Assembly: GCA_035331565.1 (NCBI GenBank)
Contig: DAOLKO010000004.1
Span: 239,802 to 303,801 of the forward strand
Direction of reading: 5' to 3'
From: Blastocatellia bacterium
Lineage (GTDB): Bacteria; Acidobacteriota; Blastocatellia; RBC074
Length of the DNA: 64,000 nt
Shown: piece by piece, positions 25,406 through 42,925 of the stretch
Numbering within the stretch: the first letter of the stretch is position 1
Layout: every line of letters starts with the position of its first letter
The notes under the pieces: model-generated
The model's input: the letters and a program-made list of their open reading frames with translations, nothing else
What the model was told of the DNA's origin: nothing
Database searches by the model: none
Position numbers and translations under genes: made by a program

Positions 25406-25433
25406 AAACTTTTCTCCTTAACAATCCGGCATT

Positions 25434-25667
25434 TAGACAGGATTGACAGGATTTTTTCGGGATTGACAGGATGCCTTTATAGCTTTCAAGAAAATGTTTT
25501 CCACGAAGTCACACGAAGCTTCACGAAGAAAAACCAAATTTCTCTGATTCCACTCTTCGTGGTTTCTTCGTGTGGCTTCGTGGAGGGAAACTCTTTTTCT
25601 TAGTGGCTGTCGGCGAGCTTTTTGCCGATCCCGTCAATCCTGTGACAAATCCTGTCAATCCTGTCTA
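25434..25667. repeat. composite palindromic element: about 40-bp inverted arms with GATTGACAGGAT repeats flanking MITE-like element copy B (25488-25610)
   Basis: Left arm TAGACAGGATTGACAGGATTTTTTCGGGATTGACAGGAT. The reverse complement of the right arm is TAGACAGGATTGACAGGATTTGTCACAGGATTGACGGGAT. The inner element is CAAGAAAATGTTTTCCACGAAGTCACACGAAGCTTCACGAAG...CTTCGTGTGGCTTCGTGGAGG. It lies between two ADOP genes, immediately upstream of the 25405 start. Confidence 0.65.
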
Positions 25668-25686
25668 TTCCGCCTTGCTTTTTGCA

Positions 25687-28107
25687 TTACTCACAACGCA
25701 AAGCGACCATCGGATCAACCTTTGTTGCGCGCCACGCCGGAATCCAGCAGGCCACAAAGGCCACGCCGATCAGCAAACCCGACGCCGCAAGAACACTGAG
25801 CGGGTCGGCGGCTTTGACGCCGTAAAGCAAACCGGCGATCAAGCGTGCAAGCCCGAATGCGCCGAACAATCCCAGCGCGACGCCGGCGGCAACCAGTTTC
25901 ATTCCCTGCCCGACAATCAGCCGCAAAACGTCACGCGAACCGGCCCCCAGCGCCACGCGAATGCCGATTTCGTGCGTGCGTTGCGAAACCATTTGCGACA
26001 TCACGGCGAACAGTCCCGCCGCCGACAACAACAGTGCAACAAGCGCAAACGTTCCCAACATGACCATCGGAAAACGACGACGCGCCACGGCGTCGGAAAG
26101 GTGCTGTTCCAGAGTCTTGAGATTGTAAAGCGGCTGATCGCGATCCAGTTCGGCCAGCGCCTGCCGTACGGCATTCGCCGACGCCGCCGGGTCGCCAGCG
26201 GTTTTCATCGCAACGCTGATGAAGGCCGCAGGCTGTTGCTGCGAGTGCAGGTAAAATTCCGGCAGAACTTCGCTTTCCAGTCCCAGCGTTTTGACATCGC
26301 CGACGACACCGACGACTTCGTAAACTTGCGGATTGCCGCGATCCAACAACACGCGTTTGCCGACGGGGTTGTCCTGTTGAAAGAGTTTCCGCGCCAGCGT
26401 CTGATTCAACATCAGAACTCGCGGCGCACCTCGGCGGTCTTGTTCGTTGAAAATGCGTCCGGCCAATAGGGGAATGCCCAGCGCGCGGAAGTAATCCGCG
26501 CCGGCCACTTGCGACAAACCGACGATGCCTTCTTTCTCCGCGCCGTCGCCTTCGCGTTTGATCGGCCAGCCGTTCAGTGCCGCGTTCGCCGCCATAGGCA
26601 AATGGCTGGCGGAACCGACTGCCTCGACGCCCGGCAATGCCTGCAAACGTTCGATCACGCTTTGATAAAAAGCCGCGCGCTGTTCGGGCGTACCGTATTT
26701 CAACGCGGTAGGCGCAAGCTCGAAGGTCAACACGCGCTCCGGGTTGAAGCCGGGTTGAAGCTGCATCACCGCATAAAAACTTCTGACCATCAGCCCTGCG
26801 CCCAGCAGCAAGACCAGCGCCAGCGCAACTTCGCCGACCGTGAAAATCCTGCGCAAACGCGGTGTCATTCCGATGGCGGTGCGGCTTCCGCTTTCTTTCA
26901 GCGCCTGCGCCAGATCGGGTTTCGACGCCTGCCAGGCCGGAATCAATCCGCAAAGCAAACCGGTCAGGAAGGTCACGCCCAGACAAAACAACAGCACACG
27001 CCAATGCAGCGTCACGGAGTTCAAGGAGGCAATCTGCGTCGGGCTGACGGCCGTCAGCGCGTCCACCAGCCAGATTGAAAGCAGCAATCCCAGCGCGCCG
27101 CCGACCGCTGCCAGCAACAGGCTCTCGGTCAGCCACAAACGCAGCAATCGCGCCCGGCTTGCGCCCAACGCCGCACGCAACGCCGTTTCCTTGCCGCGCG
27201 CCACGGATCGCGCCAGCAATAGATTGGCGACGTTGGCGCAAGCAATCAGCAACACGAAGGCCACCGCCGCCAATAACATCAACAACGGTTTTTGAATTTC
27301 GCCCGAAAACTTTTCGCTGAGCGGCGACAGCCTGACGCGCGGGTCATAGGTGAATTCGCCGAATGTTTTGACTTCGAGTTTGAGTCGTTGGTTGAGCAGC
27401 GTCAGTTCGGCTTGCGCCTGTTCAAGCGGCACGCCGACTTTGAGTTTACCGATGGCTTCCCAGTAATAAGTTTCTTTGGCCAGCACGTCATCGTTGGGCA
27501 GCAGCGGAATCCACAGCGCGGCGCGGCGGCCGTCGTGGGCGTATTGGAAACTCGGCGGCATCACGCCGACGACATCGAAACCGACGCCGTTGAGCCGGAT
27601 CGTTTGCCGCAAAATGTCCGGGGAACCGCCGTAGCGTCGCTGCCAAAGTTCATGGCTGAGCAAGGCGACGCGATTGCCGCCGCTGCGTTGTTCGTCCGCA
27701 GAAAACCAACGTCCCAGCAGCGGATTGACGCCCAGCAACGGAAAGAACTCCGCCGAAACGCGCATCACCTGCGCGCGTTCCGGCGTGTGTTCATCGGTCA
27801 GGTTGGCGCGCCCGGCGTCGTAAGCCGCCAGCGATTCCAGCGACTGCACAGGCTGTTTGCGCTGCATGAATTTGTCCGGCGCATCGAAAACGGCTTCGAG
27901 CAAGGTTCCGACGCCTTGTTTGACCAGCACCAGACGCTCCGGCGCGGTAAACGGCAACGGACGAAACAGCAAAGCGTCCGCAAAGCTGAACAGCGCGGTG
28001 TTCGCTCCAATCGCCAGCGCCAGCATGCCGACCACAACCAACACAAAGCTTTTTTGCCGGCTTAAAAATCGGATGATGTATTTCAAGTCTTGTCGCAGGG
28101 TTTGCAT
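25687..28107 (-). CDS. ADOP-family ABC transporter permease
   Basis: MQTLRQDLKYIIRFLSRQKSFVLVVVGMLALAIGANTALFS. The start at 28107 is preceded by a GAGGAGATA RBS; about 806 aa. Confidence 0.85.
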   Translation of the reverse strand: MQTLRQDLKYIIRFLSRQKSFVLVVVGMLALAIGANTALFSFADALLFRPLPFTAPERLVLVKQGVGTLLEAVFDAPDKFMQRKQPVQSLESLAAYDAGRANLTDEHTPERAQVMRVSAEFFPLLGVNPLLGRWFSADEQRSGGNRVALLSHELWQRRYGGSPDILRQTIRLNGVGFDVVGVMPPSFQYAHDGRRAALWIPLLPNDDVLAKETYYWEAIGKLKVGVPLEQAQAELTLLNQRLKLEVKTFGEFTYDPRVRLSPLSEKFSGEIQKPLLMLLAAVAFVLLIACANVANLLLARSVARGKETALRAALGASRARLLRLWLTESLLLAAVGGALGLLLSIWLVDALTAVSPTQIASLNSVTLHWRVLLFCLGVTFLTGLLCGLIPAWQASKPDLAQALKESGSRTAIGMTPRLRRIFTVGEVALALVLLLGAGLMVRSFYAVMQLQPGFNPERVLTFELAPTALKYGTPEQRAAFYQSVIERLQALPGVEAVGSASHLPMAANAALNGWPIKREGDGAEKEGIVGLSQVAGADYFRALGIPLLAGRIFNEQDRRGAPRVLMLNQTLARKLFQQDNPVGKRVLLDRGNPQVYEVVGVVGDVKTLGLESEVLPEFYLHSQQQPAAFISVAMKTAGDPAASANAVRQALAELDRDQPLYNLKTLEQHLSDAVARRRFPMVMLGTFALVALLLSAAGLFAVMSQMVSQRTHEIGIRVALGAGSRDVLRLIVGQGMKLVAAGVALGLFGAFGLARLIAGLLYGVKAADPLSVLAASGLLIGVAFVACWIPAWRATKVDPMVALRCE

Positions 28108-28141
28108 CTTTATCTCCTCAAGGTGAACCGCCGAAAAACTT

Positions 28142-30586
28142 CTACTGACAGCGCAACACAACCATCGGATCCACTTTCGTCGCGCGGCGCGCCGGAATCC
28201 AACAAGCCGTCAGTGACGCGGCGACAAGCAACAGCGAAACGCCCGCAAAAGTCACTGGCTCAATCGCCGGCACGCCGTAAAGCAATCCGCTCAACAACCG
28301 CGTCCCGGCAACGGCGGCGATCAGACCGACGGCAAAGCCCAGCAGCGTCAGCCGCAAACCGTAGCCGATAACTACTCGCGCAATCAGCGCCGCATCTGCG
28401 CCGAGCGCCATGCGGATGCCGATTTCGCGCGTGCGCGCCGTGACCGAATGCGACATCACGCCGAAAATGCCTATCACCGCCAGCAACAGCGCCAGCAAAC
28501 CGAACGCCGCCAGCAAACCCGCCGCCACGCGCGCCGGGAACAGTGGCACGTCCATGTGCTCGGTCAACGTCTTCACGTTGTAAATCGGCAACTGCGCGTC
28601 CAGCCGTTGAAACTCTTCGCGCAGGGCGGCAATCAGCGTTTGCGTATCGCCGGAGGTGCGCGCAACCAACGTTAAAAAGCCGCCGTGTTGCGAGCGCAGA
28701 TTGAGATAAGCAAAAGGCTGCGTCGCTTCGTTCAGGCTGAAATACTTGCCGTTTTCAATGACGCCTACGATTTCAATCCACGGCCCCTCCGCGCCGTTCA
28801 GGCTGAAGCGTTTGCCCAAGGCGGATTGTCCCGGCCAGAAACGGCGGGCCAAGCTATCGTTGACCAGCGCCAGCGCGCGGTCATTCATGATTTCCTGCCG
28901 TGTGAAATCGCGGCCTTCCAGCAGCCTTGTCCCCATCGCCGCAATCAAACCTTCAGTGCCGCGCGAAGTGACGGCCATGGGCGCATTGGCCCCCAATTGT
29001 TCGGGTTGCCCCTCGATGGCAAGGGATTCGGTGTTCAGGTTCAGACTGAGCGGCATGGAATTGGTCAGCCCGGCGGCTTGCACGCCCGGCAAAGAAAGTG
29101 CGCGGGTCAGAATTTGCTCTTTGAATTGCCGCGTGCGCCCTTCATCGTATCCTTGCAAAGCCAGATCGAACGACACCTCTACGGCGCGCTGCGTGACCAT
29201 CCCGTGACGGATGCGTTGTGCGTTTTGCAATCCGCGCAAAACCAGTCCGGCGCAAATCAACAGCACCAACGACAGCGCCACCTGCACGACGACCAACCCG
29301 CCGCGCAACCACGAACGACGATACCCGCCGATGGAAGTGTCGTCTTTCAACACCGGGACAAGTTCAGGCTTGGCGGCCTGCAAAGCGGGCAACAATCCAA
29401 ACACCAAGCCGGTCAACATCGAAGCCGCGCCGGTAAACAGCAGCACACGCAAATCCACGCGCAATTCCAGAGTCAACGGAATGTCCGCCGGCGGTTTGAA
29501 CGCCATTACCAAATCCATCAACCAATAGGCCAGCAGCAGCCCCAGCCCCCCACCCATCAGTGAAAGCAGAATGTTTTCGGTCAGCAATTGCCGCACGATA
29601 CTCCAGCGCCCGGCACCAAGCGCCAGACGAATGGCGATTTCCTTGCGCCGTTCCGCCGCGCGTGCCAGCAATAGATTGGCCAGATTGGTGCAGGCCAGCA
29701 GCAACACCATCCCGACCACGGCCATCAACACGCCCGCGAAGCCCAGCACAGGCCCGCGCATAAACGCGCCGAACAACCCCGGCGGCGAAAGCGCGATGGT
29801 CGCGCCTTCGTTTTCTTTCGGGTATTCGTGCGCCAATTGCGCGGCGATGTTTTTTAGCGCGACTTCAGCTTGCTCCCCGGTAACGCCGGGTTTGAGCCGC
29901 CCTTGGACAAAAAAATTCGATGTGTCGCGGTCGTTCAGGTAATCGCGCCCCGGCTCAATATTCTTCAACATCATCGAAGAAAACCACATCTCCGCACGGT
30001 AGCTGACTTCCGTGCCATGAAATCCTTGCGGAGTGACGCCGATGATCGAATAGCTGCTTCCGTTGACCAAAACGCCGCGTCCCACTATGTTCGGATCGCC
30101 GCCGAAACGCCGCTGCCAGCAGTCATAAGAAAGCACCGTCACCGGATGCGCGCCCGCCGTTTTGTCGTCTTCCGGCGTGAGCAAACGTCCCAGCGCCGGT
30201 TTCACGCCGAGCAACGGAAAGTAATTGCCCGTCGCCAGATAACTCCACACCCGCGCGTTGACGCCGTTTTCGCTTAAACCGACCGGCACAAAACGATAAG
30301 CCAGCAAACCTTCCAGCACGTCGTTGCGGTCGCGTATATCCCGATAATTGGGAACTGAAAACGTCGGAAAATTTCGTTTCCCATCCAACGAGACGCTGTT
30401 GAGCGCCACCAATCGTTCAGGCTCTGCCACGGGCAATGGCCGCAGCAGCACCGTGTTCACCAAACTGAAAATCGCCGTATTCGCGCCTATGCCCAGTGCC
30501 AGCGTCAGCAAAGCAATCAGCGTAAAGCCGGGTCGTTTCCTCAACATTCGCGCGCCGTAGCGCAGGTCTTGCAACAGGGTTTGCAT
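28142..30586 (-). CDS. ADOP-family ABC transporter permease
   Basis: [41 protein letters not shown]; 814 aa. There is a 34-nt gap to the downstream paralogue, so the two are likely co-transcribed. Confidence 0.85.
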   Translation of the reverse strand: MQTLLQDLRYGARMLRKRPGFTLIALLTLALGIGANTAIFSLVNTVLLRPLPVAEPERLVALNSVSLDGKRNFPTFSVPNYRDIRDRNDVLEGLLAYRFVPVGLSENGVNARVWSYLATGNYFPLLGVKPALGRLLTPEDDKTAGAHPVTVLSYDCWQRRFGGDPNIVGRGVLVNGSSYSIIGVTPQGFHGTEVSYRAEMWFSSMMLKNIEPGRDYLNDRDTSNFFVQGRLKPGVTGEQAEVALKNIAAQLAHEYPKENEGATIALSPPGLFGAFMRGPVLGFAGVLMAVVGMVLLLACTNLANLLLARAAERRKEIAIRLALGAGRWSIVRQLLTENILLSLMGGGLGLLLAYWLMDLVMAFKPPADIPLTLELRVDLRVLLFTGAASMLTGLVFGLLPALQAAKPELVPVLKDDTSIGGYRRSWLRGGLVVVQVALSLVLLICAGLVLRGLQNAQRIRHGMVTQRAVEVSFDLALQGYDEGRTRQFKEQILTRALSLPGVQAAGLTNSMPLSLNLNTESLAIEGQPEQLGANAPMAVTSRGTEGLIAAMGTRLLEGRDFTRQEIMNDRALALVNDSLARRFWPGQSALGKRFSLNGAEGPWIEIVGVIENGKYFSLNEATQPFAYLNLRSQHGGFLTLVARTSGDTQTLIAALREEFQRLDAQLPIYNVKTLTEHMDVPLFPARVAAGLLAAFGLLALLLAVIGIFGVMSHSVTARTREIGIRMALGADAALIARVVIGYGLRLTLLGFAVGLIAAVAGTRLLSGLLYGVPAIEPVTFAGVSLLLVAASLTACWIPARRATKVDPMVVLRCQ

Positions 30587-30924
30587 ATTCGACTCCCGTG
30601 AATGAAAAGGTTTAAGACAGGCAGTGGGAAGGTCTACTCAGCAAGCATCATTCCCTTCCAAATTCCAGGCCAAGTTGCTGAAAGTATTGTCGTTGGTCTC
30701 GGTCGTCGCCAAACGTCGGACTGTGGGGTGTTCAGTTCTGGGAAGTGGAAATGCCAAAACCGGGCGGGGCGGCAACGATCAAGGACTGTGGATTTCACGG
30801 TTTTGCGTCGTGGCGCGGACTGTTCTGCCGGCTCGCTCCTTTGCGTAGCATCCGCCCGTCGAAAAGGAAGTAAAAGGACGCCCTCGATGGGCGATGAACG
30901 GCAACCTGATTTTTTCAACTTGAG

Positions 30925-32913
30925 GTGATTATGCAAAGCATTTTGCGAAAACTTGGTCCGGCGTTGTTGCTGAGCGTGGCGTTTTCACTGGCCGGCACGG
31001 CGCAAACACAGCCACCGTCTGAAGACAAAACTCTCGCGCCGTATTTCTTCGTGCAAGGCGATCCGGCGGTGGATCATCTGCCGCTCAAAAACACTCGCGT
31101 GCAAATTGATGTTTCCGGCGTCATCGCCGATGTGAAAGTGCTGCAAACCTATCGCAACGAAGGTTCGCGTCCGATCAATGCGCGCTACGTCTTTCCGGCT
31201 TCGACGCGCGCCGCCGTCTACGCAATGCAGATGCGCATCGGCGAACAGGTGATAGTCGCCAAAATCAAAGAGCGCGAACAGGCCAAGCAGGAATTCGAGC
31301 AAGCCAAACGCGACGGCAAAAGCGCCTCGCTGCTGGAACAGCAGCGTCCTAACGTCTTTTCAATGAACCTCGCCAACGCCATGCCCGGCGAACAGATCGA
31401 AATCGAATTGCACTACACAGAATTGCTTGTTCCCACCGACGGCGTTTACGAAGTCGTCTTTCCCACCGTCGTCGGGCCGCGCTATTCCTCGCAACCGGAA
31501 GCTGCCGCGCCGTCGTCAGATCAATGGATCAAAAGCCCTTACCTGCGCGAAGGCAGGCCGTCCAGCAGCGCGTTTCATCTTTCCGCGCGGCTTTCCACGG
31601 GCGTGCCGCTGCGGGATTTGAGCTGCCCTTCGCACAACATCGCGCCGCAATGGCTGGGGCCGGCTTCGGCGCAATTTAGTTTGGAGCAAACCGGCCAATC
31701 GCAAGCCAATAAGGATTTCATCCTGCGCTACCGGTTGACGGGCGAACAACTCGCCGCCGGTTTGTTGCTCTACCAAGGCGCGGATGAAAACTTTTTCCTT
31801 TACATGGCGCAGCCGCCGGAGCGCGTGGCGACGGCGGCCATTCCCGCGCGCGAATACATTTTCGTGGTGGATGTTTCGGGTTCGATGAACGGCTTTCCGC
31901 TCGACACGGCCAAAGCATTGCTGAAAGACTTGATCGGTCAGTTGCGCCCGACGGATTTGTTCAATGTGGTGCTGTTTGCCGGAGACGCCGCCGCACTCGC
32001 GCCGCACTCGCTGCGCGCCGAACCGGAAAACCTAGCCAAAGCCATTCGCCTGATCGAACAGCAACGCGGCAACGGCGGAACCGAATTACTTGCCGCCATT
32101 CAACAGGCTATGGCGCTGCCTCGACAGTCCGGCATTTCGCGCAGCGTGGTGCTGGTGACGGACGGTTTCGTTTCCGGCGAACAGGGCGCGTTCGATTACA
32201 TCCGCGACCATCTGAATCAATGCAACGTGTTTTCGTTCGGCATAGGCTCTTCGGTCAATCGTTACCTGATCGAAGGCGTGGCCAAAGCCGGAATGGGCGA
32301 ACCGTTCATCGTCACCAAAGCGGAAGAAGCGCCCGCTGTCGCCGCCAAATTCCGCGAATACATTCAAACGCCGCTGCTGACGGACTTGCGCGTCACGGCC
32401 ACAGGCTTCGACATTTACGATGTAGCGCCGACGCACCTGCCGGATTTGTTCGCGCGGCGTCCGATCGTTCTGTTCGGCAAATGGCGGGGGCCGTTGACAG
32501 GCGCGTTTGAATTGCGCGGCAAGACGGGTGATGGCGATTACCTGGCGCGTATGGATGTCGCCGGCGTCAAACCGGAAGAAAGCAACCGCGCGCTGCGTTA
32601 CCTGTGGGCGCGTTCGCGCATCGCTGAGCTTTCCGATTACGGCGCGAGCGATCTGCCCAAAGAGCAAATCAACGAAATCACCGCGCTCGGATTGAAGTAC
32701 AACTTGCTGACTCGCTACACCTCTTTCATTGCCGTGCGCGAAGTCGTGACCAACAAACAGGGCGCGGCTGACGACGTGGAACAACCGCTGCCATTGCCCG
32801 AAGGCGTCAGCGAAATGGCCGTCGGCAGCGAACCTGAACTCGTCTGGCTGTTGGTTGTGATGGCGGCGTTCGCAATGTTGATGGTGTTTCGCGGACGGAG
32901 GACGTTGGCATGA
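30925..32913 (+). CDS. secreted VIT + von Willebrand factor A domain protein with C-terminal exosortase-type sorting signal
   Basis: Signal peptide. The vWA core is at VVDVSGSM (MIDAS motif). C-terminus: ...SEPELVWLLVVMAAFAMLMVFRGRRTLA, i.e. an acidic-Pro motif, a TM helix and an Arg-rich tail (PEP-CTERM-like). Confidence 0.65.
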   Translation: MIMQSILRKLGPALLLSVAFSLAGTAQTQPPSEDKTLAPYFFVQGDPAVDHLPLKNTRVQIDVSGVIADVKVLQTYRNEGSRPINARYVFPASTRAAVYAMQMRIGEQVIVAKIKEREQAKQEFEQAKRDGKSASLLEQQRPNVFSMNLANAMPGEQIEIELHYTELLVPTDGVYEVVFPTVVGPRYSSQPEAAAPSSDQWIKSPYLREGRPSSSAFHLSARLSTGVPLRDLSCPSHNIAPQWLGPASAQFSLEQTGQSQANKDFILRYRLTGEQLAAGLLLYQGADENFFLYMAQPPERVATAAIPAREYIFVVDVSGSMNGFPLDTAKALLKDLIGQLRPTDLFNVVLFAGDAAALAPHSLRAEPENLAKAIRLIEQQRGNGGTELLAAIQQAMALPRQSGISRSVVLVTDGFVSGEQGAFDYIRDHLNQCNVFSFGIGSSVNRYLIEGVAKAGMGEPFIVTKAEEAPAVAAKFREYIQTPLLTDLRVTATGFDIYDVAPTHLPDLFARRPIVLFGKWRGPLTGAFELRGKTGDGDYLARMDVAGVKPEESNRALRYLWARSRIAELSDYGASDLPKEQINEITALGLKYNLLTRYTSFIAVREVVTNKQGAADDVEQPLPLPEGVSEMAVGSEPELVWLLVVMAAFAMLMVFRGRRTLA

Positions 32914-33650
32914 AATGGCCGTTGACTCGCCGACAATGCTTGCAGGCCGTGGTCGTTTTGAGTTGCGCCTTCGCGCTTAAACTTCATTACGCCACGGCCA
33001 CGGCCAATCAGTTGCGCTGGATTCTGACGCCGACCACGGCGCTGGTCGAAGCGATGACCGGCCTTGCCTTCGAGTTTGAATCGCAGGCCGGTTACTTGAG
33101 CCGCGAGCGCGGATTTCTGATTGCGGTTTCCTGCGCGGGTGTCAATTTTCTGCTCACGGCCTTTTTGTTGCTGACGCTGAGCAGACTGTGGCGCGGGCGG
33201 CTGACCTGGCGCTTTCTGCCGGCGGCGGCGGCAATTGCCTACTCGGTTACGCTGGCGGCAAACTCTGTCCGCATCTGCCTGGCGCTATGGCTGCTGCGGC
33301 TACCCGCCAAAAGCTACGGTTGGCAGCCGGCGCAGCTTCACCGTTATGAAGGCATTCTCGTTTACTTCGGATTTCTGCTGCTGTTGTTCGTGGTCAGCGA
33401 ACTGCCGCGCGCGGAGAAGATGACAGGATGGCGACAACGGGTGTATGTTCCATTGCTGATTTATTACGCGACGACGTTAGGCATTCCGCTGGTCACTCGT
33501 GCCTGGCGGCAGGAAACGGCATTTACGGAACACGCGGTTGCGGTGCTGTTGCTGCCCCTGCTGCTATTGCTGCCGGCGTTGCCGCTCGCGGCGTTGCGCC
33601 GTCAAACGTTTTCCCGGTTTTCCCTTCCTGATTGGGGTAAACGATTATGA
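32910..33650 (+). CDS. exosortase family protein (small XrtN-like polytopic membrane transpeptidase)
   Basis: 246 aa, multi-TM. Candidate active-site Cys in IAVSCAGVNFLL and an N-x-x-R motif (LAANSVRICLALWLL), matching exosortase/archaeosortase conserved Cys/Asn/Arg. ATGA overlap with the VIT-vWA gene. Confidence 0.55.
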   Translation: MKWPLTRRQCLQAVVVLSCAFALKLHYATATANQLRWILTPTTALVEAMTGLAFEFESQAGYLSRERGFLIAVSCAGVNFLLTAFLLLTLSRLWRGRLTWRFLPAAAAIAYSVTLAANSVRICLALWLLRLPAKSYGWQPAQLHRYEGILVYFGFLLLLFVVSELPRAEKMTGWRQRVYVPLLIYYATTLGIPLVTRAWRQETAFTEHAVAVLLLPLLLLLPALPLAALRRQTFSRFSLPDWGKRL

Positions 33651-34345
33651 CCACATTGGTCGTCATTTTTTTCCTGTTGCTTGTGGCGACGACGCTCGCC
33701 GCAAGATTTTCAACCCGCCGCACGAATCTTCCAGAAATATCCCGCTCAGTGCCCGCTTCTCAATTCGACGGATTGTTCGCTGACAAACGCGCTGAAGAAA
33801 TGAAATTGCTGGCGGAAGAAGACGCCGGAGCGGTTCAATCAACAGCGCGACAGCAATTGCTGGAACGTGCGGCGGCGGGCGACCTGGAATCGCTCAACGA
33901 AGCGCAGGCGCTCAACCAACCGCAGTTTTACCAGCAGGCATTGCGGGCAATTCTCACACAAGCAGATGGCAACCCCAGACTTTTCCAATCAACAGTTGAA
34001 CACATCGTCAGCAGCCGGAAGCTGCGTTCCAGCCGCGAATTCGCCGAAGCGACCATCGCGCTGTGGGCGGAGTCTCCAGATCGGTTTTCGCTGGGAAGCG
34101 TTCTTTGCCTGGCGGCGCTGGCCGACGATGAAAATGTTTTCGTTCGCGCGCTCGACACTGCGCTCAGGCTGTGGCGCGAAGAGCGAATCGAGAAGATTTC
34201 CGCAGCGCACTTTCTCGCAACGGTTGAAAGCGCCTACTGGCTGGTGGCCGGTGACGTGAGAAGTTCCGGGGCAGGCTTTCTGCTGAAACAGGCCATTGCC
34301 GATGTTCGCCGTGCGCTAGCGGCGGCAGACCGGCGACCGGCTTGA
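33647..34345 (+). CDS. membrane-anchored hypothetical protein (EpsI-like partner of exosortase?)
   Basis: N-terminal TM helix (LVVIFFLLLVATTLAA). ATGA overlap with the exosortase gene. Size and position resemble EpsI-family partners; no motif was recognised. Confidence 0.35.
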   Translation: MTTLVVIFFLLLVATTLAARFSTRRTNLPEISRSVPASQFDGLFADKRAEEMKLLAEEDAGAVQSTARQQLLERAAAGDLESLNEAQALNQPQFYQQALRAILTQADGNPRLFQSTVEHIVSSRKLRSSREFAEATIALWAESPDRFSLGSVLCLAALADDENVFVRALDTALRLWREERIEKISAAHFLATVESAYWLVAGDVRSSGAGFLLKQAIADVRRALAAADRRPA

Positions 34346-34385
34346 GTTACACAAACCTCCTATTCGCTAGCAGCAAAGGAAACCT

Positions 34386-36590
34386 ATGGATTCCGTACTT
34401 GGATTTTCACCTTTCCCGCTCGTTGCGGGAGTCATTGGGCTGCTGATAGTGCTCTATGTGTTGAGCAAAATTTTCGTCAACGTCGGCCCGAAAGAAATCG
34501 CCATCAAGGAGCGCCGCTACTTTGGCCGCAAGATGCCGCCCGGTCGCGTTGTCGCTACCGAAGGCGAAGTCGGCATTCAGGCCGATGTACTCAAACCCGG
34601 CCTGCACTTGATCCGCTATCCGTTCGAGCAGGTAGTCAGCAAAGTTCCGCTAATTGAAATTGGCTCGGACGAAATGGGCGTGATCGAAGCGATTGATGGT
34701 GAACCGCTGCCGCCGGGGCGCATTTTCGCACCCGACCGCGCACAGAACGCGCACAACAACTTTCAAGACCCGATTGCCTTCATCAAGGAAGGCGGCGTCA
34801 AAGGCATTCAAATGCGCAGCCTGCCGCCGGGTTTGTGGCCGATTCATCCTTATCTGTTTCGCGTTTCGATTACCAAGGCAACGACGATTCCGCAAGGCAA
34901 GGTCGGCATCGTCAACGCTGCCGACGGCGCGTCGCTGGATCAAGGCCGTTTGATAGGCCGCAGCGTCGAAGGCCACAGCAACTTTCAAAACGCCGAACAA
35001 TTCATCGCCGCCAACGGACAGAAAGGCCCGCAGGTGGACATTTTGACACCCGGAACCTATCGCATTCTGTGCAATTCGATTTCGCTGGAAGACAACACGG
35101 TCAAGCCCGGCTTGTTTTCAATTCAACTGGCGGATGCCGCCGTCATCAATGAAAACCAGGTCGGTTTGGTCGAAGCTCTGGACGGTTCGCCGCTCAATCC
35201 GCGCGATTACGTCGCTCTGCCGGTCGAAGGCCATGGCAATTTTCAGAACGGCAATGAGTTCATCAAACGTGGCGGCCAGCGCGGGCCGCAAAAAGACCTG
35301 TTGTTGCCCGGCACTTATTACATCAACCCCATGCTCTTCAAGGTGATTCACGACACCGCCAAGGAGGTCAAACCGGGCGAGGTCGCGGTCATTGTCTCGA
35401 ACACCGGCAAAGATCCCGGCGAGGAAATTCGCCGCGCCATGGCTGAAAAAATCCGCGCCAAACTTGAACGCGAGGAAAAAGAGCAATTAGCAGCAGCTGC
35501 CGCTCATCTCGATCAGCTTGACGGAAAAAACGGCGACGACCTGCTGGAAATTCAGCAGGAGTTGAAACTGAGCGATCCGGCGGACAATCGTCTGGATCAA
35601 GGCGCGCACGAAGCTTACGTCGTGCCCGACGGCTTCAGAGGCATACAGGAAACAGTGGTTGGCCCCGGACGGTATTACGTCAACACGCTGGCCGTCACGC
35701 CGGTCGTTATTCCGACCACCAACCAAACCGTCGAATGGACTGCCGAACAAATCAAAGGTTCCTTCGATCCTTTTGAAGTGATTTCCAAAGACGGGTTCAC
35801 GATGCAGTTGGAAGTTCGGGTCGTGTTTCGCGTCAAACCGGAAGACGCGCCGTTTATGGTTGCCAAGATCGGTTCGATTGATCGGCTGATTCAAAACGTC
35901 ATGCATCCGCTGATTGATTCCATCTTCCGCAATCAAGCCAGCGAATCGTCGGCAATGGCTTATTTGCAGAACCGCCACGAAGAGCAGGAACGCGCCGAAG
36001 CCCGTGTCCGCGCACATCTGCTGAAATACCACGTGGACGTGGTCAACGTGCTGATCTGCCACATCCGTTTGCCGGAAGAATTGATGAAAACGCAGACCGA
36101 AAAAGTCCTGGCCGAACAACGCCAGACCATGTTCAACGCGCAACGCGAAGCAGAGGTCAATCGCATCGAACTCGAAAAAACCAAAGCTCACGCCGACAAC
36201 CAGAAATCGCTGATGGAAGCGACGGTCGGCGTTGAAATCTCCAGCCGTCGCGCCGAACAGCGCCGGTCTGAAGGCGAAGGCGAAGCGCACTACATACTGC
36301 AAACCGGCAAGGCCGAAGCCGAAAAGGTTCGCCTGATGGGCGAGGCGCAAGGCGTGGCTTACAAGGAACAGGTCAACGCGCTCGGCCCGCAAGGCGTTGC
36401 GCTGGTCGAAACGCTGAAAGTCATTGGCGAAAAAGGCGTCCGCATCACGCCAGACGTGCTGGCTTCCGGCGGGGGCGGCGAAGGCGGCGGAAATCTGGGG
36501 ACGCTGCTGCTGTTGAATCTGTTCCGCGACCAAATGAAACTAAACGGAACCAAACCCGAACCGGCTAACGGCACGGCTAAACAATGGTAA
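34386..36590 (+). CDS. flotillin-like SPFH/band-7 domain protein
   Basis: N-terminal TM helix and an SPFH-like region with internal duplicated modules (GHSNFQNAEQFIAANGQKGPQVDILTPGTY / GHGNFQNGNEFIKRGGQRGPQKDLLLPGTY). C-terminal flotillin-type EA-rich coiled coil (...KAEAEKVRLMGEAQGVAYKEQVNALGP...). Confidence 0.6.
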   Translation: MDSVLGFSPFPLVAGVIGLLIVLYVLSKIFVNVGPKEIAIKERRYFGRKMPPGRVVATEGEVGIQADVLKPGLHLIRYPFEQVVSKVPLIEIGSDEMGVIEAIDGEPLPPGRIFAPDRAQNAHNNFQDPIAFIKEGGVKGIQMRSLPPGLWPIHPYLFRVSITKATTIPQGKVGIVNAADGASLDQGRLIGRSVEGHSNFQNAEQFIAANGQKGPQVDILTPGTYRILCNSISLEDNTVKPGLFSIQLADAAVINENQVGLVEALDGSPLNPRDYVALPVEGHGNFQNGNEFIKRGGQRGPQKDLLLPGTYYINPMLFKVIHDTAKEVKPGEVAVIVSNTGKDPGEEIRRAMAEKIRAKLEREEKEQLAAAAAHLDQLDGKNGDDLLEIQQELKLSDPADNRLDQGAHEAYVVPDGFRGIQETVVGPGRYYVNTLAVTPVVIPTTNQTVEWTAEQIKGSFDPFEVISKDGFTMQLEVRVVFRVKPEDAPFMVAKIGSIDRLIQNVMHPLIDSIFRNQASESSAMAYLQNRHEEQERAEARVRAHLLKYHVDVVNVLICHIRLPEELMKTQTEKVLAEQRQTMFNAQREAEVNRIELEKTKAHADNQKSLMEATVGVEISSRRAEQRRSEGEGEAHYILQTGKAEAEKVRLMGEAQGVAYKEQVNALGPQGVALVETLKVIGEKGVRITPDVLASGGGGEGGGNLGTLLLLNLFRDQMKLNGTKPEPANGTAKQW

Positions 36591-36603
36591 CCGGCACAAA
36601 CAT

Positions 36604-36636
36604 CATCAGCCGCCGCATCACACGCGGCGGCTGATG
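36604..36636 (+). terminator. Rho-independent terminator after flotillin gene
   Basis: Perfect 13-bp stem CATCAGCCGCCGC / GCGGCGGCTGATG with a 7-nt loop, followed by AGCTTTATCTC. Confidence 0.6.
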
Positions 36637-36897
36637 AGCTTTATCTCAATGCCGGCGGGCGAAAACCTTATCCTTCCTCGTTTGCCTGATACTTTCCCAA
36701 ACTAAAATTTCCTGCCTTGCCACTTTCCTGCTGCCACGAATGGGACAGGCGCATCCCAAAAGTGGACAGGTTGTCACCAGCCATTCGCGATACCGCCTAA
36801 TTTTTACAGCCATTTAGCAATATTTTTTCTGGCACGCATCTGGCTACCGGGAACTCTCTTTTTTTGAATAGCGGAAACCACACAACCGGATAAAGAG

Positions 36898-39318
36898 GTG
36901 AAAATGAATTCGCTTTGGCAAGACTTGCGCTATGGCGCGCGAATGTTACTGAAACGACCCGGCTTCACGTTGATCGCCGTGTTGACGTTGGCATTGGGCA
37001 TCGGCGCGAACACTGCAATTTTCAGTGTCGTGAATGCCGTGTTGTTGCGCCCGCTGCCTTACCCGGAATCGGAGCGTCTGGTGATGGCGTATCTGTCCAA
37101 TCCGCAAGGGCAAAAGCGCGCCAATTTGGGAATGGCGGACTTTTTGGCCGTCCGCGAACGCAATCAGAGTTTCGAGAAAGTGGCGATGTTTACTTTCGGG
37201 CAATTCGCGTTCACGGGCGGCGAACAGCCGGAGCAAATTTCAGGTGCCTGGGTGAGCGCGGATTTTTTCGCCACGTTGGGCGTCGCGCCGGCACAGGGGC
37301 GCGCTTATCAGGCCGAAGACGAGCGACCGGAAAATGCGCGTATGGTCGTCATCAGCGACGGATTTTGGCGGCAGCGGCTGGCGGCGGATTCGCAGGTGAT
37401 CGGCAAAACGATCACGTTGAACAGCACGCCGCACACGGTCATCGGCGTGATGCCGAAGAACTTTCATTTCCCGCTGACGCCCGAAGCTGAATTGTGGCCG
37501 GTGCGGGCGATTCGTCCGGCGACGAACCGCCCGCCTTATTTCAATCGTTGTGTTGGACGGTTGAAACCGGGCGTGAGCGAAGAGCAGGCGCGGGCGGATT
37601 TGAGCGCCATCGCCGCGCAGGTGCATCAGCAGTTTCCCGAATCGCCTTTTGGTGCGATGACCACACGGCCATTGATCGCTTCGGTGGTGGGCGATGTGCG
37701 CCAGGCATTGCTGTTGATTTTGGGCGCGGTGGCGTTTGTGTTGTTGATCGCGTCGGCCAACGTTGCCAATTTGCAACTGGCGCGCGCGGCTTCGCGCGAA
37801 CGCGAGATGTCTGTGCGGTTGGCGTTGGGTGCGAATCGTTGGCGGATCGTGCGGCAATTGCTGACGGAAAGCCTGTTGCTGGCCGCGATAGGCGGTCTGG
37901 CGGGTTGGGGCCTGGCGTTCTGGGGAGTTGATCTTTTCCGCGCGCTCGGCCCTGTGGATTTGCCGCGCTTGCAGGAAGTCAGTCTGGATGGGCGCGCGCT
38001 TGGGTTCACCATGCTGGCGGCGCTCGTTAGCGGATTGCTGTTCGGACTTGCGCCGGCCTTGCAATCCTCGCGAATGGATTTGAACGAATCGCTCAAGGAA
38101 GGCGGTCGCGCGGGCAGCGAAGGTCGCGGACGCCGGCGTGTGCGCGGCTTGCTGGTGGTTGCTGAAATGGCGCTGACGCTGGTGCTGCTGGTCGGCGCGG
38201 GATTGTTGCTGCGCAGCTTCCTGCACTTGCAGGAAGTCAACCCGGGTTTCAATCCGAAGGGATTGCTGACCGCGCAGGTTTCGCTGCCGCAGGCGCGTTA
38301 CGGCGAAGAGCAAAAGATCATAGCCTTTCATCGCGAATTGATGACGCGCGCGAAAAGCCTGCCGGGCGTGCAGTCCGTCGGCATCAGCATGAGTTTGCCG
38401 CCGAACCTGCTGGAAATCAGCAATCCTTTCGCCGTCGAAGGCCGCCCGCCCGCGCCCGGACAAGCGCGTCCGCTGGCAGAGGAAATGACCATCAGCCCGG
38501 ACTATTTCACCGCGCTCGGCGTGCCGCTGCTGCGCGGACGCTTTTTCAACGACGCCGACAAAGAAAACATTTTGATTATCAACGAAGCCATGGCGCGCCG
38601 TTACTTTCCGAACGAAGACCCTGTCGGCAAGCGATTACAAACAGGCGACCCCAGTCCGAACAGTCCCTGGGAAACGATTGTCGGCGTGGTCGGCAACGTG
38701 AAATACACAGGGCTGGACGCTGACGACTCGCCGACAATGTACGTGCCTTACACGACGCCCGGCTGGGCTTCGTGGTCGCGTTCAATGTATCTGGTCGTGC
38801 GCACGACGGGCGCTCCATCGAGCTTGGCGTCCGCGTTGCGCCGCGAAGTCAACGCACTGGACGGCGACCTGCCGTTGACCAATGTCCGCGCGATGGAGCA
38901 GGTGATTCACGAATCGGTCGCCGAGCCGCGTTTTCGCACTTCGCTGCTGGGCTTGTTCGCGGCGGTGGCTTTGCTGTTGGCGGGCATAGGCATTTACGGT
39001 GTGATCTCGTATGCAGTCACCGAACGCAGGCACGAAATCGGCATTCGGATGGCGCTGGGCGCGCAACGTGGCGATGTGATGCGGCTGGTGGTCAAACAAG
39101 GAATGCTGCTCGCCGGCGTCGGCATCGCCATCGGTTTGGCTGCTTCGTTGGCGTTGACGCGGCTGATGAAGACTTTGCTTTTCGGCGTCAGTGCGACTGA
39201 TCCGCTGACCTTCGGCGGCATCGCGCTGTTGTTGGCGCTTGTGGCGTTGGCGGCTTGCTGGATTCCGGCGCGACGCGCGACGAAAGTTGATCCGATGATT
39301 GCGTTGCGATGCGACTGA
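36898..39318 (+). CDS. ADOP-family ABC transporter permease
   Basis: [43 protein letters not shown]; 806 aa; GAGGTG RBS. Confidence 0.85.
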
Positions 39319-39459
39319 TTGGGGCGAACGCGGCTGCTCGTCAGGCGGGTTGGTACTTTTTCGGTGGGTGTTTTTGAAAGTGCAACAACAGTTTGCGTTG
39401 ATTGATTGCGCCCTTTCGATTCAAGTCCAACTCCGCGACAGTGGCGCGTCCGGTCGGAG

Positions 39460-39780
39460 TCAGGCCGATGATGATTGCAAAGTCATCGCTCCAGGCAAAG
39501 TGTTCGTGCCAGTCGTGCCGGCGCGGATGTTAAAGCGGGACGGATTCCTGGCTAATCGGATCAATCGCGTAGTCTTGTTGTATTTGTGGTTGTTACACCG
39601 CTGGCAGGCTCGCGCGAGGTTTTCCGCAATGCTTTTGCCGCCGACTGAAAGCGGGTTGATGTGCTCGGTGGAGAAAGCGTCCGGGCCGTAATCTTCCTGA
39701 CAGATGCAATATTCACAGCATCCTCCCGCGCGTTCTTTAACCAACTGCCGGAGTTTGGTTGGAATTCGGTGTTTAGTCAT
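39460..39780 (-). CDS. HNH endonuclease
   Basis: HNH motif CEYCICQ...EHINPLSVGG...NLARACQRCNNHK. Start MTKHRIPTK at 39780; 8-bp overlap (ATGACTAA) with the upstream partner gene. Confidence 0.75.
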   Translation of the reverse strand: MTKHRIPTKLRQLVKERAGGCCEYCICQEDYGPDAFSTEHINPLSVGGKSIAENLARACQRCNNHKYNKTTRLIRLARNPSRFNIRAGTTGTNTLPGAMTLQSSSA

Positions 39781-40162
39781 GAGGCACTGGTTTGATGCCA
39801 AGCTGCCGCATCAATTCATCGAGTGTGACACTGCGCAACATCGCCAGTTGGGCCAGGCATTGCAACCGCTCGACGCCGATCTCTTCGGATTGATCCGTGA
39901 GTCGGATCAATTCTTCAAGTTCAGCAGGAGTAATGACGCCTTCTCCGCGCCTCTCGATCAATTTGTTCATTCGCCGGCGCGCCGGAGGCGGGAGGTCTTG
40001 ATTGATTTTGAGCAGCAGTCCGGTTTCAGCTTCGGATAGGTTGGGGGTTTCTTCTCGCGCCTTAAGAGCAAAGAGTTTGGCGGCGAATCGGTCAAACTCC
40101 TGACGCGGCAATTGCAACGCGGCGTTCAAGATTTGTTCGGGTTCAATTTGAATGGTTGGCAT
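39773..40162 (-). CDS. small helical protein translationally coupled to the HNH endonuclease (function unknown)
   Basis: MPTIQIEPEQILNAALQLPRQEFDRFAAKLFALKAREE... Its stop overlaps the HNH start. The start coordinate is approximate (about 40159-40162). Confidence 0.4.
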   Translation of the reverse strand: MPTIQIEPEQILNAALQLPRQEFDRFAAKLFALKAREETPNLSEAETGLLLKINQDLPPPARRRMNKLIERRGEGVITPAELEELIRLTDQSEEIGVERLQCLAQLAMLRSVTLDELMRQLGIKPVPHD

Positions 40163-40231
40163 AACGCTGACTCCTGATTTCGGTAACGCGCCAAATAATA
40201 AACTGCTCCGCGCGACATTGGCGAACAAAAC

Positions 40232-40310
40232 GAGGTGTGAAATGAGGAGATTGGCGCAAACTCTTTAGCAAGACTTGCGCTACGGCGAGCGAATGCTGAT
40301 AGCGGGATGA
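40232..40310 (+). pseudogene. relic 5' end of an ADOP permease gene (RBS + about 20 codons, in-frame stop)
   Basis: GAGGTGTGAAATGAGGAGATTGGCGCAAACTCTTTAGCAAGACTTGCGCTACGGCGAGCGAATGCTG aligns with the ADOP4 start region (GAGGTGAAAATGAATTCGCTTTGGCAAGACTTGCGCTATGGCGCGCGAATGTTACTG). It translates to MRRLAQTL*QDLRYGERMLIAG*. Confidence 0.6.
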
Positions 40311-40418
40311 TGCTGCTGCTGACTGCGCTCCGCAGGGAATGATGAAATCGTCGAACTGCAACGCGAGGGGACGATCATCAAAACGACAAAGATTGACAGC
40401 GAATGGGAGGATTTACAG

Positions 40419-42905: not shown

Positions 42906-42925
42906 CCGAAAGAAGGGGAATCTAC

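What the first reader, a model, noticed from the sequence alone, without database searches (positions are those of the whole stretch)
30925..36590. Dedicated substrate-exosortase operon: VIT-vWA protein, mini-exosortase, EpsI-like protein, flotillin
Four translationally coupled or tightly spaced genes. The first is a secreted VIT + vWA protein ending in an acidic-Pro motif, a TM helix and RGRR, which looks like a PEP-CTERM-type sorting signal. The second is a 246-aa polytopic protein with exosortase-like Cys (SCAG) and N-x-x-R motifs, overlapping the first by ATGA. The third is an N-terminally anchored protein of unknown function, possibly EpsI-like. The fourth is a 734-aa flotillin with internal duplications. 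The operon is embedded among six ADOP permeases. The arrangement resembles XrtN-type single-target exosortase systems, but the flotillin partner is unusual.
Basis: partly seen in the sequence, partly recalled or inferred. Interest (0 to 1): 0.7.

Follow-up and report, generated by a model that had tools for sequence, protein, structure and literature searches.

The report
Exosortase K with its single substrate
This is a two-gene surface-protein sorting cassette of soil Acidobacteria: a membrane cysteine protease (exosortase K) next to the one adhesin-like VIT-vWA protein it processes. The flotillin pair beside it is an unrelated neighbour, so this is an ordinary, if neatly resolved, member of a known kind of system.

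Summary
All four ORFs and the six flanking ADOP permeases exist as described. Gene 2 passes NCBI's curated model for exosortase K (XrtK, 115.7 bits; cut-off 55), not XrtN, and Cys75, Asn118-x-x-Arg121 and His144 are invariant.

Gene 1 is a VIT + vWA protein with an intact MIDAS site. Its tail has three parts: G-S-E-P-E-L-x-W-L, a 17-19-aa hydrophobic span and an Arg cluster.

The VIT-vWA gene sits directly upstream of XrtK in 77 of 77 informative Blastocatellia genome loci. In an independent metagenome scan for the tail motif, every true tail was on a VIT-vWA protein (56/56) with XrtK downstream (66/66). No other neighbour is conserved. The dedicated enzyme-substrate reading therefore holds for genes 1 and 2.

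It does not hold for genes 3 and 4. Gene 3 (one TM helix plus an α-solenoid, not EpsI-like) and the 734-aa flotillin form their own conserved pair, found elsewhere without XrtK. They follow XrtK only in this species-level lineage. The ATGA overlap comes from gene 3's own start codon, and XrtK's last ~15 codons run through gene 3's former leader.

Public annotation names XrtK but calls the substrate only "VIT domain-containing protein". Verdict: new member of a known kind, modest interest.

The parts
30931..32913 (+). g1: VIT-vWA surface protein, the single predicted XrtK substrate (660 aa from ATG 30931; 662 aa if the GTG at 30925 is used)
   Evidence: TIGR03788 (marine proteobacterial sortase target) aligns over aa 57-632 at 419 bits, below its 551.65 cut-off. 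The gene is directly upstream of XrtK in 77/77 informative genome loci.
30925..31002 (+). Predicted Sec signal peptide of g1 (MIMQSILRKLGPALLLSVAFSLAGTA | QTQ)
   Evidence: Read from the sequence: basic n-region, hydrophobic h-region and small residues before the cut. No predictor was run, so this is inference.
31084..31416 (+). VIT domain of g1 (aa 54-164)
   Evidence: PF08487, E 1.4e-34, 119 bits.
31858..32328 (+). vWA domain of g1 (aa 312-468) with an intact MIDAS site (D316-x-S318-x-S320, T386, D413)
   Evidence: PF13768, PF13519 and PF00092. The MIDAS residues are invariant in 30 aligned sequences.
32824..32850 (+). Sorting-signal signature motif GSEPELVWL (aa 634-642)
   Evidence: Among 78 sequences: G 78, S 73, E 78, P 78, E 77, L 70, V/I 65, W 76, L 77. 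It is the only such tail in the 64-kb window.
32839..32901 (+). Hydrophobic transmembrane span (LVWLLVVMAAFAMLMVF) followed by the basic cluster RGRR at the C-terminus of g1
   Evidence: Kyte-Doolittle score 2.26. The span is 17-19 aa, followed by 2-5 R/K in the next 8 aa, in all 78 sequences.
32910..33650 (+). g2: exosortase K (XrtK), 246 aa, six long helices. Predicted catalytic residues: Cys75 (33132-33134), Arg121 (33270-33272) and His144 (33339-33341).
   Evidence: TIGR04287 at 115.7 bits (cut-off 55) and TIGR04178 at 30.4 bits (cut-off 23). C75, N118, R121, H144 and R145 are invariant in 28 sequences. The AlphaFold2 model has pLDDT 78.
33603..33650 (+). Junction of the two modules: the last ~15 codons of XrtK read through what is the non-coding leader of g3 in other genomes. 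The TGA stop comes from g3's own ATG-ACC start.
   Evidence: 30 of 45 ungapped identities with the g3 leader in L081, anchored at the ATG (p about 8e-8).
33647..34345 (+). g3: N-terminal TM helix plus an alpha-solenoid domain. It belongs to a separate g3-g4 module, not to the XrtK system.
34386..36590 (+). g4: 734-aa flotillin/SPFH protein with an N-terminal TM helix, three ~75-aa repeats (34650-35390), a charged linker, and an SPFH core (35637-36158). It is the partner of g3, not of XrtK.
   Evidence: PF01145, E 3.8e-24. Repeat z-scores are 17.6-28.5. It is absent next to XrtK in 79 of 80 genome loci and in 80 of 80 metagenome loci.
36603..36637 (+). Strong G+C-rich hairpin 13 nt after the g4 stop, the likely end of the transcription unit
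   Evidence: Stem of 14-16 pairs with 10 G-C pairs. No comparable site lies between g1 and g4. The consensus scan as a whole is no richer than shuffled sequence.

Best explanation
The conserved unit is a two-gene, one-enzyme/one-substrate sorting cassette typical of Blastocatellia (Acidobacteriota).

Proposed pathway, all steps inferred:
1. The VIT-vWA protein is exported by Sec through its N-terminal signal peptide.
2. It stays tethered in the inner membrane by its C-terminal helix. The Arg cluster stays in the cytoplasm, and the GSEPELxWL motif sits at the periplasmic edge of the membrane.
3. Exosortase K is a six-helix membrane cysteine protease. Its Cys75, Arg121 and His144 lie at the periplasm-facing ends of helices 2, 3 and 4. 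It recognises the motif and cleaves off the helix.
4. By analogy with sortase A and archaeosortase A, the new C-terminus is transferred to an acceptor, a lipid or a polysaccharide. The MIDAS-containing adhesin-like domain then ends up attached at the cell surface.

What is shown here: family membership, the invariant residues, strict adjacency and the exclusivity of the tail. What is inferred: cleavage, the cleavage site, the acceptor and the final location.

Genes 3 and 4 (membrane-anchored alpha-solenoid protein plus long flotillin) are a separate conserved pair. In this one lineage they landed directly behind xrtK and are probably co-transcribed with it. They are not part of the sorting system.
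For: - Enzyme: XrtK HMM at 115.7 bits against a cut-off of 55, and no other Xrt subfamily matched. C75, N118, R121, H144 and R145 are invariant.
- Topology: the AlphaFold2 helices together with the positive-inside distribution (basic stretches RRQ at aa 7-9, RLWRGRLTWR at aa 92-101 and the basic C-terminus) put all three catalytic residues on one face.
- Adjacency: VIT-vWA is directly upstream of XrtK in 77/77 informative genome loci, often with the same ATGA overlap. ORF clustering finds no third conserved neighbour; the next most common cluster occurs in 8 of 80 loci.
- Tail: the motif is nearly invariant while the hydrophobic helix varies freely.
- Independent test: in a metagenome scan for the motif DNA, 75 true tails were all on VIT-vWA where testable (56/56), with XrtK downstream (66/66). 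The 5 other matches were internal chance hits with no TM or Arg cluster.
- Passenger: relatives carry classical PEP-CTERM tails at the same place, for example P0275 MPEPELLWL...RTRR. The MIDAS site is invariant.
- Separate module: g3 plus the Band_7 gene are adjacent in three unrelated contexts without XrtK. XrtK relatives at 75-79% identity have convergent unrelated genes downstream. The XrtK 3' end is the former g3 leader.
- Literature: the tripartite signal, the criteria for dedicated systems and the Cys/Arg/His triad are described in Haft 2023 (bioRxiv 10.1101/2023.06.07.544157). VIT/vWA homologs carrying GlyGly-CTERM, PEP-CTERM or LPXTG tails, the LPXTG ones with a dedicated sortase, are shown in Haft & Varghese 2011 (PMC3237569).
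Against: - No biochemical data exist for any XrtK. No exosortase has a solved structure.
- The tail is not recognised by any curated sorting-signal model. PEP-CTERM and MSEP-CTERM did not match; the best hit was JDVT-CTERM at 11.7 bits against a cut-off of 27.
- The one-substrate-per-genome claim rests on adjacency and on sampled loci, not on scans of complete genomes.
- In this window g1-g4 have no internal terminator, and g2/g3 overlap. Co-expression with the flotillin pair is therefore likely here, and a lineage-specific functional link cannot be excluded.
Confidence: 0.85

Rival explanations
1. All four genes form one functional system. The flotillin and its alpha-solenoid partner build a membrane microdomain that organises XrtK and its substrate.
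For: - g2/g3 overlap by 4 bp and the g3-g4 gap is 40 bp. No terminator-like site of comparable strength lies before the hairpin at 36603-36637.
- The arrangement is kept in L001 and L086-L088.
- From general knowledge: bacterial flotillins scaffold membrane protein complexes.
Against: - g3 and g4 are absent next to XrtK in 79 of 80 genome loci and in all 80 metagenome loci.
- XrtK relatives at 75-79% identity lack them.
- The g3-g4 pair occurs on its own in unrelated contexts.
- The overlap is explained by g3's own ATG-ACC start and by read-through into its former leader.
Confidence: 0.07
2. The C-terminal tail is only a permanent membrane anchor and is not cleaved. The XrtK homolog next door has another substrate or role.
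For: No cleavage has been shown for any XrtK substrate. No curated sorting-signal HMM recognises the tail.
Against: - A plain anchor would not keep G-S-E-P-E-L-x-W-L nearly invariant while the helix itself drifts.
- Homologs carry bona fide PEP-CTERM motifs at the same position.
- Adjacency with the enzyme is strict: 77/77 and 66/66.
- The catalytic triad is invariant.
Confidence: 0.05
3. It is an XrtN-type system (exosortase N with its VIT-domain partner).
For: There is a superficial resemblance: a small exosortase next to a VIT-domain protein. That XrtN systems look like this is recalled from memory of the NCBIfam names, not tested here.
Against: g2 matches only XrtK and the generic exosortase/archaeosortase signature at E <= 0.1. 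g1 matches no XrtN-system VIT model. Public sources name the family exosortase K.
Confidence: 0.02

Closest known systems
Exosortase K (XrtK, TIGR04287) with its MSEP-CTERM target (TIGR04286); the target family and its Bacteroidota range are recalled from memory
   Same: g2 passes the XrtK model at twice its cut-off. The enzyme and its single target are adjacent. The signature motif shares the S-E-P core (GSEP here, MSEP in the named family).
   Different: - g1 does not match the MSEP-CTERM model, either as a whole protein (E <= 0.1) or as the tail alone (E <= 10).
- The host is Acidobacteriota (Blastocatellia).
- The XrtK model (163 positions) covers only aa 12-162. These proteins carry a conserved C-terminal extension of ~85 aa with two further helices.
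Marine proteobacterial dedicated sortase and its LPXTG target (TIGR03784 / TIGR03788)
   Same: The passenger is homologous: VIT + vWA plus a C-terminal region, aligned over aa 57-632 at 419 bits. The logic is the same: one enzyme and one adjacent substrate in a Gram-negative cell.
   Different: The sorting enzyme is unrelated (sortase fold against polytopic exosortase). The signal is LPXTG rather than GSEPE. g1 scores below the family cut-off (419 against 551.65).
XrtA / PEP-CTERM (EpsH) systems
   Same: Same enzyme superfamily with a Cys/Arg/His triad, and the same tripartite signal with the invariant E-P core abutting the helix. Relatives of g1 carry true PEP-CTERM tails.
   Different: - XrtA serves many substrates per genome and sits in EPS loci, often with EpsI. 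Here there is one substrate, no EPS genes and no EpsI.
- The enzyme is much smaller: 6 helices against 8 or more (the figure given in Haft 2023).
Archaeosortase A / PGF-CTERM (Haloferax volcanii)
   Same: It is the only experimentally characterised homologous enzyme. It removes the C-terminal helix, and this is coupled to lipid attachment. It is the template for the proposed mechanism.
   Different: Archaeal host, a different motif, many substrates, and a known prenyl-lipid anchor. No acceptor is known here.
Exosortase N with the XrtN-system VIT-domain protein (recalled from memory)
   Same: A small exosortase next to a VIT-domain protein.
   Different: No HMM match for either gene. This is an analogy only.
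Bacterial flotillins (YqiK, FloT/FloA) with operon partners such as NfeD
   Same: g4 has an N-terminal membrane anchor, an SPFH domain and a long charged helical region. Its Gly-rich C-terminus resembles that of YqiK by eye. It has a small membrane-anchored partner gene.
   Different: - Three ~75-aa repeats and a linker precede the SPFH core.
- The partner g3 is an alpha-solenoid with no NfeD or other Pfam match.
- No PDB or NCBIfam match.

Membership tests
Exosortase K (TIGR04287) | Score at or above the curated HMM cut-off | tested here: met
   115.7 bits against a cut-off of 55, E 1.4e-33, aa 12-162 on profile positions 5-154 of 163. Homologs are named exosortase K by NCBI and JGI.
Exosortase K (TIGR04287) | Conserved Cys, Arg and His of the exosortase/archaeosortase superfamily | tested here: met
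   C75, R121 and H144 (also N118 and R145) are invariant in 28 sequences. The TIGR04178 signature scores 30.4 bits against a cut-off of 23.
Exosortase K (TIGR04287) | Polytopic integral membrane protein | tested here: met
   AlphaFold2 gives long helices at 7-29, 76-94, 102-129, 140-167, 174-196 and 205-236.
Exosortase K (TIGR04287) | Adjacent cognate target belonging to the MSEP-CTERM family (TIGR04286; the pairing is recalled from memory) | tested here: not met
   An adjacent target with an S-E-P motif exists, but neither g1 nor its tail matches the MSEP-CTERM model. The Bacteroidota seed sequences could not be fetched for direct comparison.
Tripartite C-terminal sorting signal of PEP-CTERM type (criteria of Haft 2023) | Signature motif abutting a transmembrane helix, then an Arg-rich cluster at the extreme C-terminus | tested here: met
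   GSEPELxWL, a 17-19-aa hydrophobic span, then 2-5 R/K, in 78 of 78 sequences.
Tripartite C-terminal sorting signal of PEP-CTERM type (criteria of Haft 2023) | [quoted passage not shown] | tested here: met
   77/77 genome loci. In metagenome loci found through the tail alone, 66/66 have XrtK downstream.
Tripartite C-terminal sorting signal of PEP-CTERM type (criteria of Haft 2023) | Homologs elsewhere lack the signal or carry a different one; N-terminal signal peptide present | tested here: met
   Among 150 representatives, 14 have PEP-type tails and others end in other domains or have no tail. LPXTG and GlyGly-CTERM versions are reported in PMC3237569. The signal peptide was read from the sequence only.
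PEP-CTERM domain (TIGR02595) | Match to the curated PEP-CTERM HMM | tested here: not met
   No hit for the tail at E <= 10. The first Pro of PEP is replaced by Ser.
One substrate per genome (dedicated system) | No other protein in the genome carries the tail | not testable with these tools
   Only the 64-kb window (one tail) and sampled loci could be scanned.
Exosortase N system | Match to the XrtN and XrtN-system VIT-domain models | tested here: not met
   Neither model appears among the hits at E <= 0.1.
Marine proteobacterial sortase target (TIGR03788) | Score above the cut-off, and an LPXTG signal next to a sortase | tested here: not met
   419.3 bits against a cut-off of 551.65. The tail has no LPXTG, and the neighbour is an exosortase.
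EpsI family (suggested for g3) | Match to the EpsI HMM, or a compatible fold | tested here: not met
SPFH / flotillin (g4) | Band_7 domain above the gathering score, with an N-terminal membrane anchor | tested here: met
   PF01145 at 86.1 bits against 23.6. The hydrophobic segment is at aa 13-31.
ADOP duplicated permeases (flanking genes) | TIGR03434 above the cut-off | tested here: met
   All six ORFs score 907-1033 bits against a cut-off of 622.3.

The most novel reading that the evidence does not exclude
VIT-vWA proteins may share a deeply conserved 'cleave the C-terminus and attach covalently' biology.

From my own knowledge, not tested here: in animals the inter-alpha-trypsin-inhibitor heavy chains, which are also VIT + vWA, lose a C-terminal propeptide, and the new C-terminus is ester-linked to a glycosaminoglycan.

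In bacteria the same passenger has been captured repeatedly by unrelated dedicated sorting enzymes: sortase, rhombosortase, XrtA-type exosortases and, here, XrtK. If XrtK transfers the Blastocatellia protein onto an exopolysaccharide or lipid acceptor, this compact two-gene cassette would be a minimal model for exosortase transpeptidation. The S-E-P core would then be the XrtK recognition code shared with MSEP-CTERM.
Probability: 0.15. Interest if true: 0.6.

Novelty: new member of a known kind. Interest (0 to 1): 0.3.

Why it matters
Exosortases are widespread, but no bacterial member has a defined cleavage site, a known acceptor or a solved structure. A cassette with one small enzyme (246 aa) and exactly one adjacent substrate is therefore about the simplest system in which to test whether exosortases are transpeptidases and what they attach proteins to. 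Here the recognition motif is nearly invariant across more than 150 orthologs.

There are three practical consequences:
- The tail (G-S-E-P-E-L-x-W-L, helix, Arg cluster) is missed by current curated models. Hundreds of Blastocatellia proteins named only "VIT domain-containing protein" or "Ca-activated chloride channel homolog" could be re-annotated as XrtK substrates.
- This is a cautionary example. A tight, translationally overlapping four-gene "operon" turned out to be two independent modules joined recently.
- The flotillin link, which made the finding look unusual, is not a property of the system.

Tried and rejected
- The first tail extraction was off by one base and gave nonsense. It was repeated correctly.
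- A literature search for XrtK, MSEP-CTERM or "exosortase K" found nothing relevant. No paper combines exosortase, Acidobacteria, PEP-CTERM and flotillin. The key paper Haft et al. 2012 (PMC3256604) is not held, so the statements about MSEP-CTERM and XrtN partners rest on memory of the family names.
- The afdb50 fold library was unavailable.
- Rfam found nothing in the window. PADLOC found nothing for the four genes.
- BLASTP of g4 against itself did not report the repeats at E 1e-3. Smith-Waterman alignment against shuffles did.
- The promoter/terminator scan gave counts equal to the chance expectation. Only the hairpin after g4 stands out.
- The promoter-like site inside xrtK (33420-33449) scores 9 of 12 and is no better than chance, so it was not used.
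- The idea that the ADOP permeases belong to the system was rejected. They adjoin the cassette in only a few loci, and ADOP is a large paralogous family.
- Bacteroidota XrtK loci could not be reached.

Full report
**1. Observation.** The four + strand ORFs are present at the stated coordinates: g1 30925-32913, g2 32910-33650, g3 33647-34345 and g4 34386-36590.
- The g1/g2 and g2/g3 junctions are ATGA overlaps, and g3 and g4 are 40 bp apart.
- Shine-Dalgarno-like sequences precede each start: GGAGGA before g2 and AAGGAA before g4.
- For g1, GAGGTG at 30922-30927 points to ATG 30931 as the true start. This agrees with the 660-aa public gene calls.
- The six neighbouring ~800-aa ORFs all pass the ADOP model TIGR03434.
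- A 14-16-bp G+C-rich hairpin follows g4 at 36603-36637, and nothing comparable lies inside the cluster. The four genes are therefore probably one transcript in this genome.
- P0380 is 100% identical to g1, and the same four gene calls recur in public Blastocatellia MAG contigs, for example DAOQPW010000055.1 in GCA_035333365.1. The window is therefore from this organism or a very close relative.

**2. The enzyme.** g2 scores 115.7 bits on NCBIfam TIGR04287, exosortase K (cut-off 55).
- It also passes the generic exosortase/archaeosortase signature TIGR04178. No other Xrt subfamily, XrtN included, matches at E <= 0.1.
- More than 1,100 homologs were found, and the named ones are called exosortase K by JGI and NCBI.
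- In an alignment of 28 sequences, Cys75 (S-C-A-G), Asn118, Arg121, His144 and Arg145 are invariant.
- An AlphaFold2 model (pLDDT 78) shows six long helices plus a short helix and beta-hairpin after helix 1.
- Basic residues lie at the N-terminus, in the loop at aa 92-101 and at the C-terminus. With that distribution, the three catalytic residues all sit at the periplasm-facing ends of helices 2, 3 and 4. This topology is inferred.
- The XrtK profile covers only aa 12-162. The remaining ~85 aa, with two further helices, are conserved within this clade (P181, L182, Y185, Y186, A187 and P193 are invariant).
- No solved structure resembles the protein by sequence or fold.

**3. The substrate.** g1 has VIT and vWA domains.
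- It aligns over nearly its whole length (aa 57-632) with the "marine proteobacterial sortase target" family TIGR03788, but below that family's cut-off.
- The MIDAS residues D316, S318, S320, T386 and D413 are invariant, so the vWA domain is probably a functional metal-dependent binding module.
- The last 29 residues are GSEPELVWL-LVVMAAFAMLMVF-RGRR-TLA.
- Across 78 sequences the motif is G(78) S(73) E(78) P(78) E(77) L(70) V/I(65) W(76) L(77). It is followed by a 17-19-aa hydrophobic span and then 2-5 Arg/Lys, while the helix sequence itself varies.
- This is the tripartite architecture, with the motif abutting the helix, that Haft describes for signals cut by membrane-embedded sorting enzymes.
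- No curated model recognises the tail. NCBI names the orthologs only "VIT domain-containing protein" or "VIT and VWA domain-containing protein", and JGI calls them "Ca-activated chloride channel homolog".

**4. Linkage.**
- A scan of one genome per species returned 80 loci, all Blastocatellia, Pyrinomonadaceae or unclassified Acidobacteriota apart from a few generically labelled MAGs and L001, which is labelled Heliomicrobium but is near-identical.
- The VIT-vWA gene lies directly upstream of xrtK in all 77 loci that have upstream DNA, frequently with the same ATGA overlap.
- Clustering all ORFs of these loci shows that only these two families recur (77 and 74 loci). The next family occurs in 8 loci.
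- As an independent test I searched metagenome contigs for the motif DNA alone. Of 80 loci, 75 carry a true C-terminal tail. All of those with enough flank are on VIT-vWA proteins (56/56) and have xrtK downstream on the same strand (66/66). The other five matches are internal to unrelated proteins and lack the helix and the Arg cluster.
- Within the 64-kb window, g1 is the only ORF with such a tail.

**5. The passenger elsewhere.**
- A full-library search found 23,469 relatives.
- Among the best 150 representatives, 14 end in classical PEP-CTERM tails at the same position, for example MPEPELLWL...RTRR in P0275. A few end in A/S/D-E-P variants. Most continue into other C-terminal domains or have no tail.
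- Haft & Varghese (2011) already showed VIT/vWA homologs ending in GlyGly-CTERM, PEP-CTERM or LPXTG, the last with a dedicated Gram-negative sortase encoded next door.
- The Blastocatellia cassette is thus another instance of a recurrent theme, here with XrtK and a Pro-to-Ser variant of the PEP motif.

**6. Genes 3 and 4.**
- g3 has 109 homologs, all from Acidobacteriota and all annotated as hypothetical.
- In three unrelated contigs g3 is followed, ~40 bp later, by a 731-735-aa Band_7 gene, with no XrtK or VIT-vWA gene nearby.
- Conversely, g3 and g4 follow XrtK only in the window, in L001 and in L086-L088 (>= 91% identity). XrtK relatives at 75-79% identity have convergent unrelated genes downstream, although ADOP genes persist upstream in two of them.
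- The 45 nt before the g3 ATG in the window, which encode the end of XrtK, match the non-coding leader of g3 in L081 at 30 of 45 positions without gaps (p about 8e-8). The TGA that ends XrtK is part of g3's own conserved ATG-ACC start.
- The apparent translational coupling is therefore a by-product of a recent juxtaposition.
- g4 is a flotillin-like SPFH protein with three significant ~75-aa repeats (z 17.6-28.5) ahead of the SPFH core. Its role, and that of g3, remains unknown.

**7. Mechanism and status.**
- Shown: family membership, the invariant catalytic residues, the conserved tripartite tail, strict one-to-one adjacency, and the independence of the flotillin pair.
- Inferred from the archaeosortase A and sortase A precedents: Sec export, retention by the C-terminal helix, attack by Cys75 at or near S-E-P-E at the outer face of the inner membrane, removal of the helix, transfer to an unknown acceptor, and surface display of the MIDAS domain.

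**8. Comparison and novelty.**
- The enzyme is a member of XrtK by every feature I could test.
- The substrate is not a member of the named MSEP-CTERM family, of PEP-CTERM (TIGR02595) or of TIGR03788 by their HMM thresholds. It works like all of them.
- The system is a new, unannotated member of the known class of dedicated exosortase/target pairs, not a new kind.
- Interest is modest. The value lies in a clean minimal model for exosortase biochemistry and in an annotation gap that is easy to close.

Noticed in passing
window 34386-36590 (repeats about 34650-35390) with 33647-34345; also L081 7001-9947, L082 7001-9940 and L084 7001-9998: A conserved Blastocatellia gene pair of unknown function. 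One gene encodes a 232-aa TM-anchored alpha-solenoid protein. The other encodes a ~732-aa flotillin-like protein in which three ~75-aa tandem repeats and a charged linker precede the SPFH core. Neither has a PDB, NCBIfam or PADLOC match.
   Followed up: partly
window 33603-33650: The last ~15 codons of xrtK are the former 5' leader of g3 (30 of 45 ungapped identities with L081). The ATGA overlap is created by g3's own ATG-ACC start. This is an example of apparent translational coupling produced by recent gene juxtaposition.
   Followed up: yes
window 30922-30933: The GTG at 30925 used by the mechanical ORF call lies inside a GAGGTG Shine-Dalgarno sequence. The ATG at 30931 is the likely start of g1 (660 aa, as in the public gene calls).
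   Followed up: yes
L001 (CAZRXE010000014.1): This contig is labelled 'uncultured Heliomicrobium sp.' (a Firmicute) but carries the same four genes at 91-99% protein identity, followed by an ADOP gene. It is probably a mis-binned or mislabelled Blastocatellia contig.
   Followed up: no
window 39460-39801 (-) and 39773-40228 (-): A 113-aa HNH endonuclease (PF01844 / PF14279) overlaps a 151-aa ORF with no family match. The pair sits between two ADOP genes. The equivalent 129-aa call is present in the public contigs L086 and L088. It may be a small mobile or toxin-like pair.
   Followed up: partly
window 22955-30586 (-) and 36898-45328 (+): Six full-length ADOP duplicated permeases lie in two divergent triplets around the cluster. 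ADOP genes also lie upstream of the cassette in the 75-79% relatives L089 and L090. That suggests a partly syntenic neighbourhood into which the g3-g4 pair moved.
   Followed up: partly
L106 953-980 and L150 (minus strand, about 2453-2478): The nine-residue string GSEPE[FL]VWL also occurs by chance inside unrelated proteins whose sequence continues LEHPPLYTAGTSA (it looks like octanoyltransferase LipB by eye). The short motif alone is not diagnostic without the helix and the Arg cluster.
   Followed up: no
window 1-64000: No Rfam family reaches its gathering score anywhere in the window, including the 338-bp divergent intergenic region upstream of g1 (30587-30924).
   Followed up: yes
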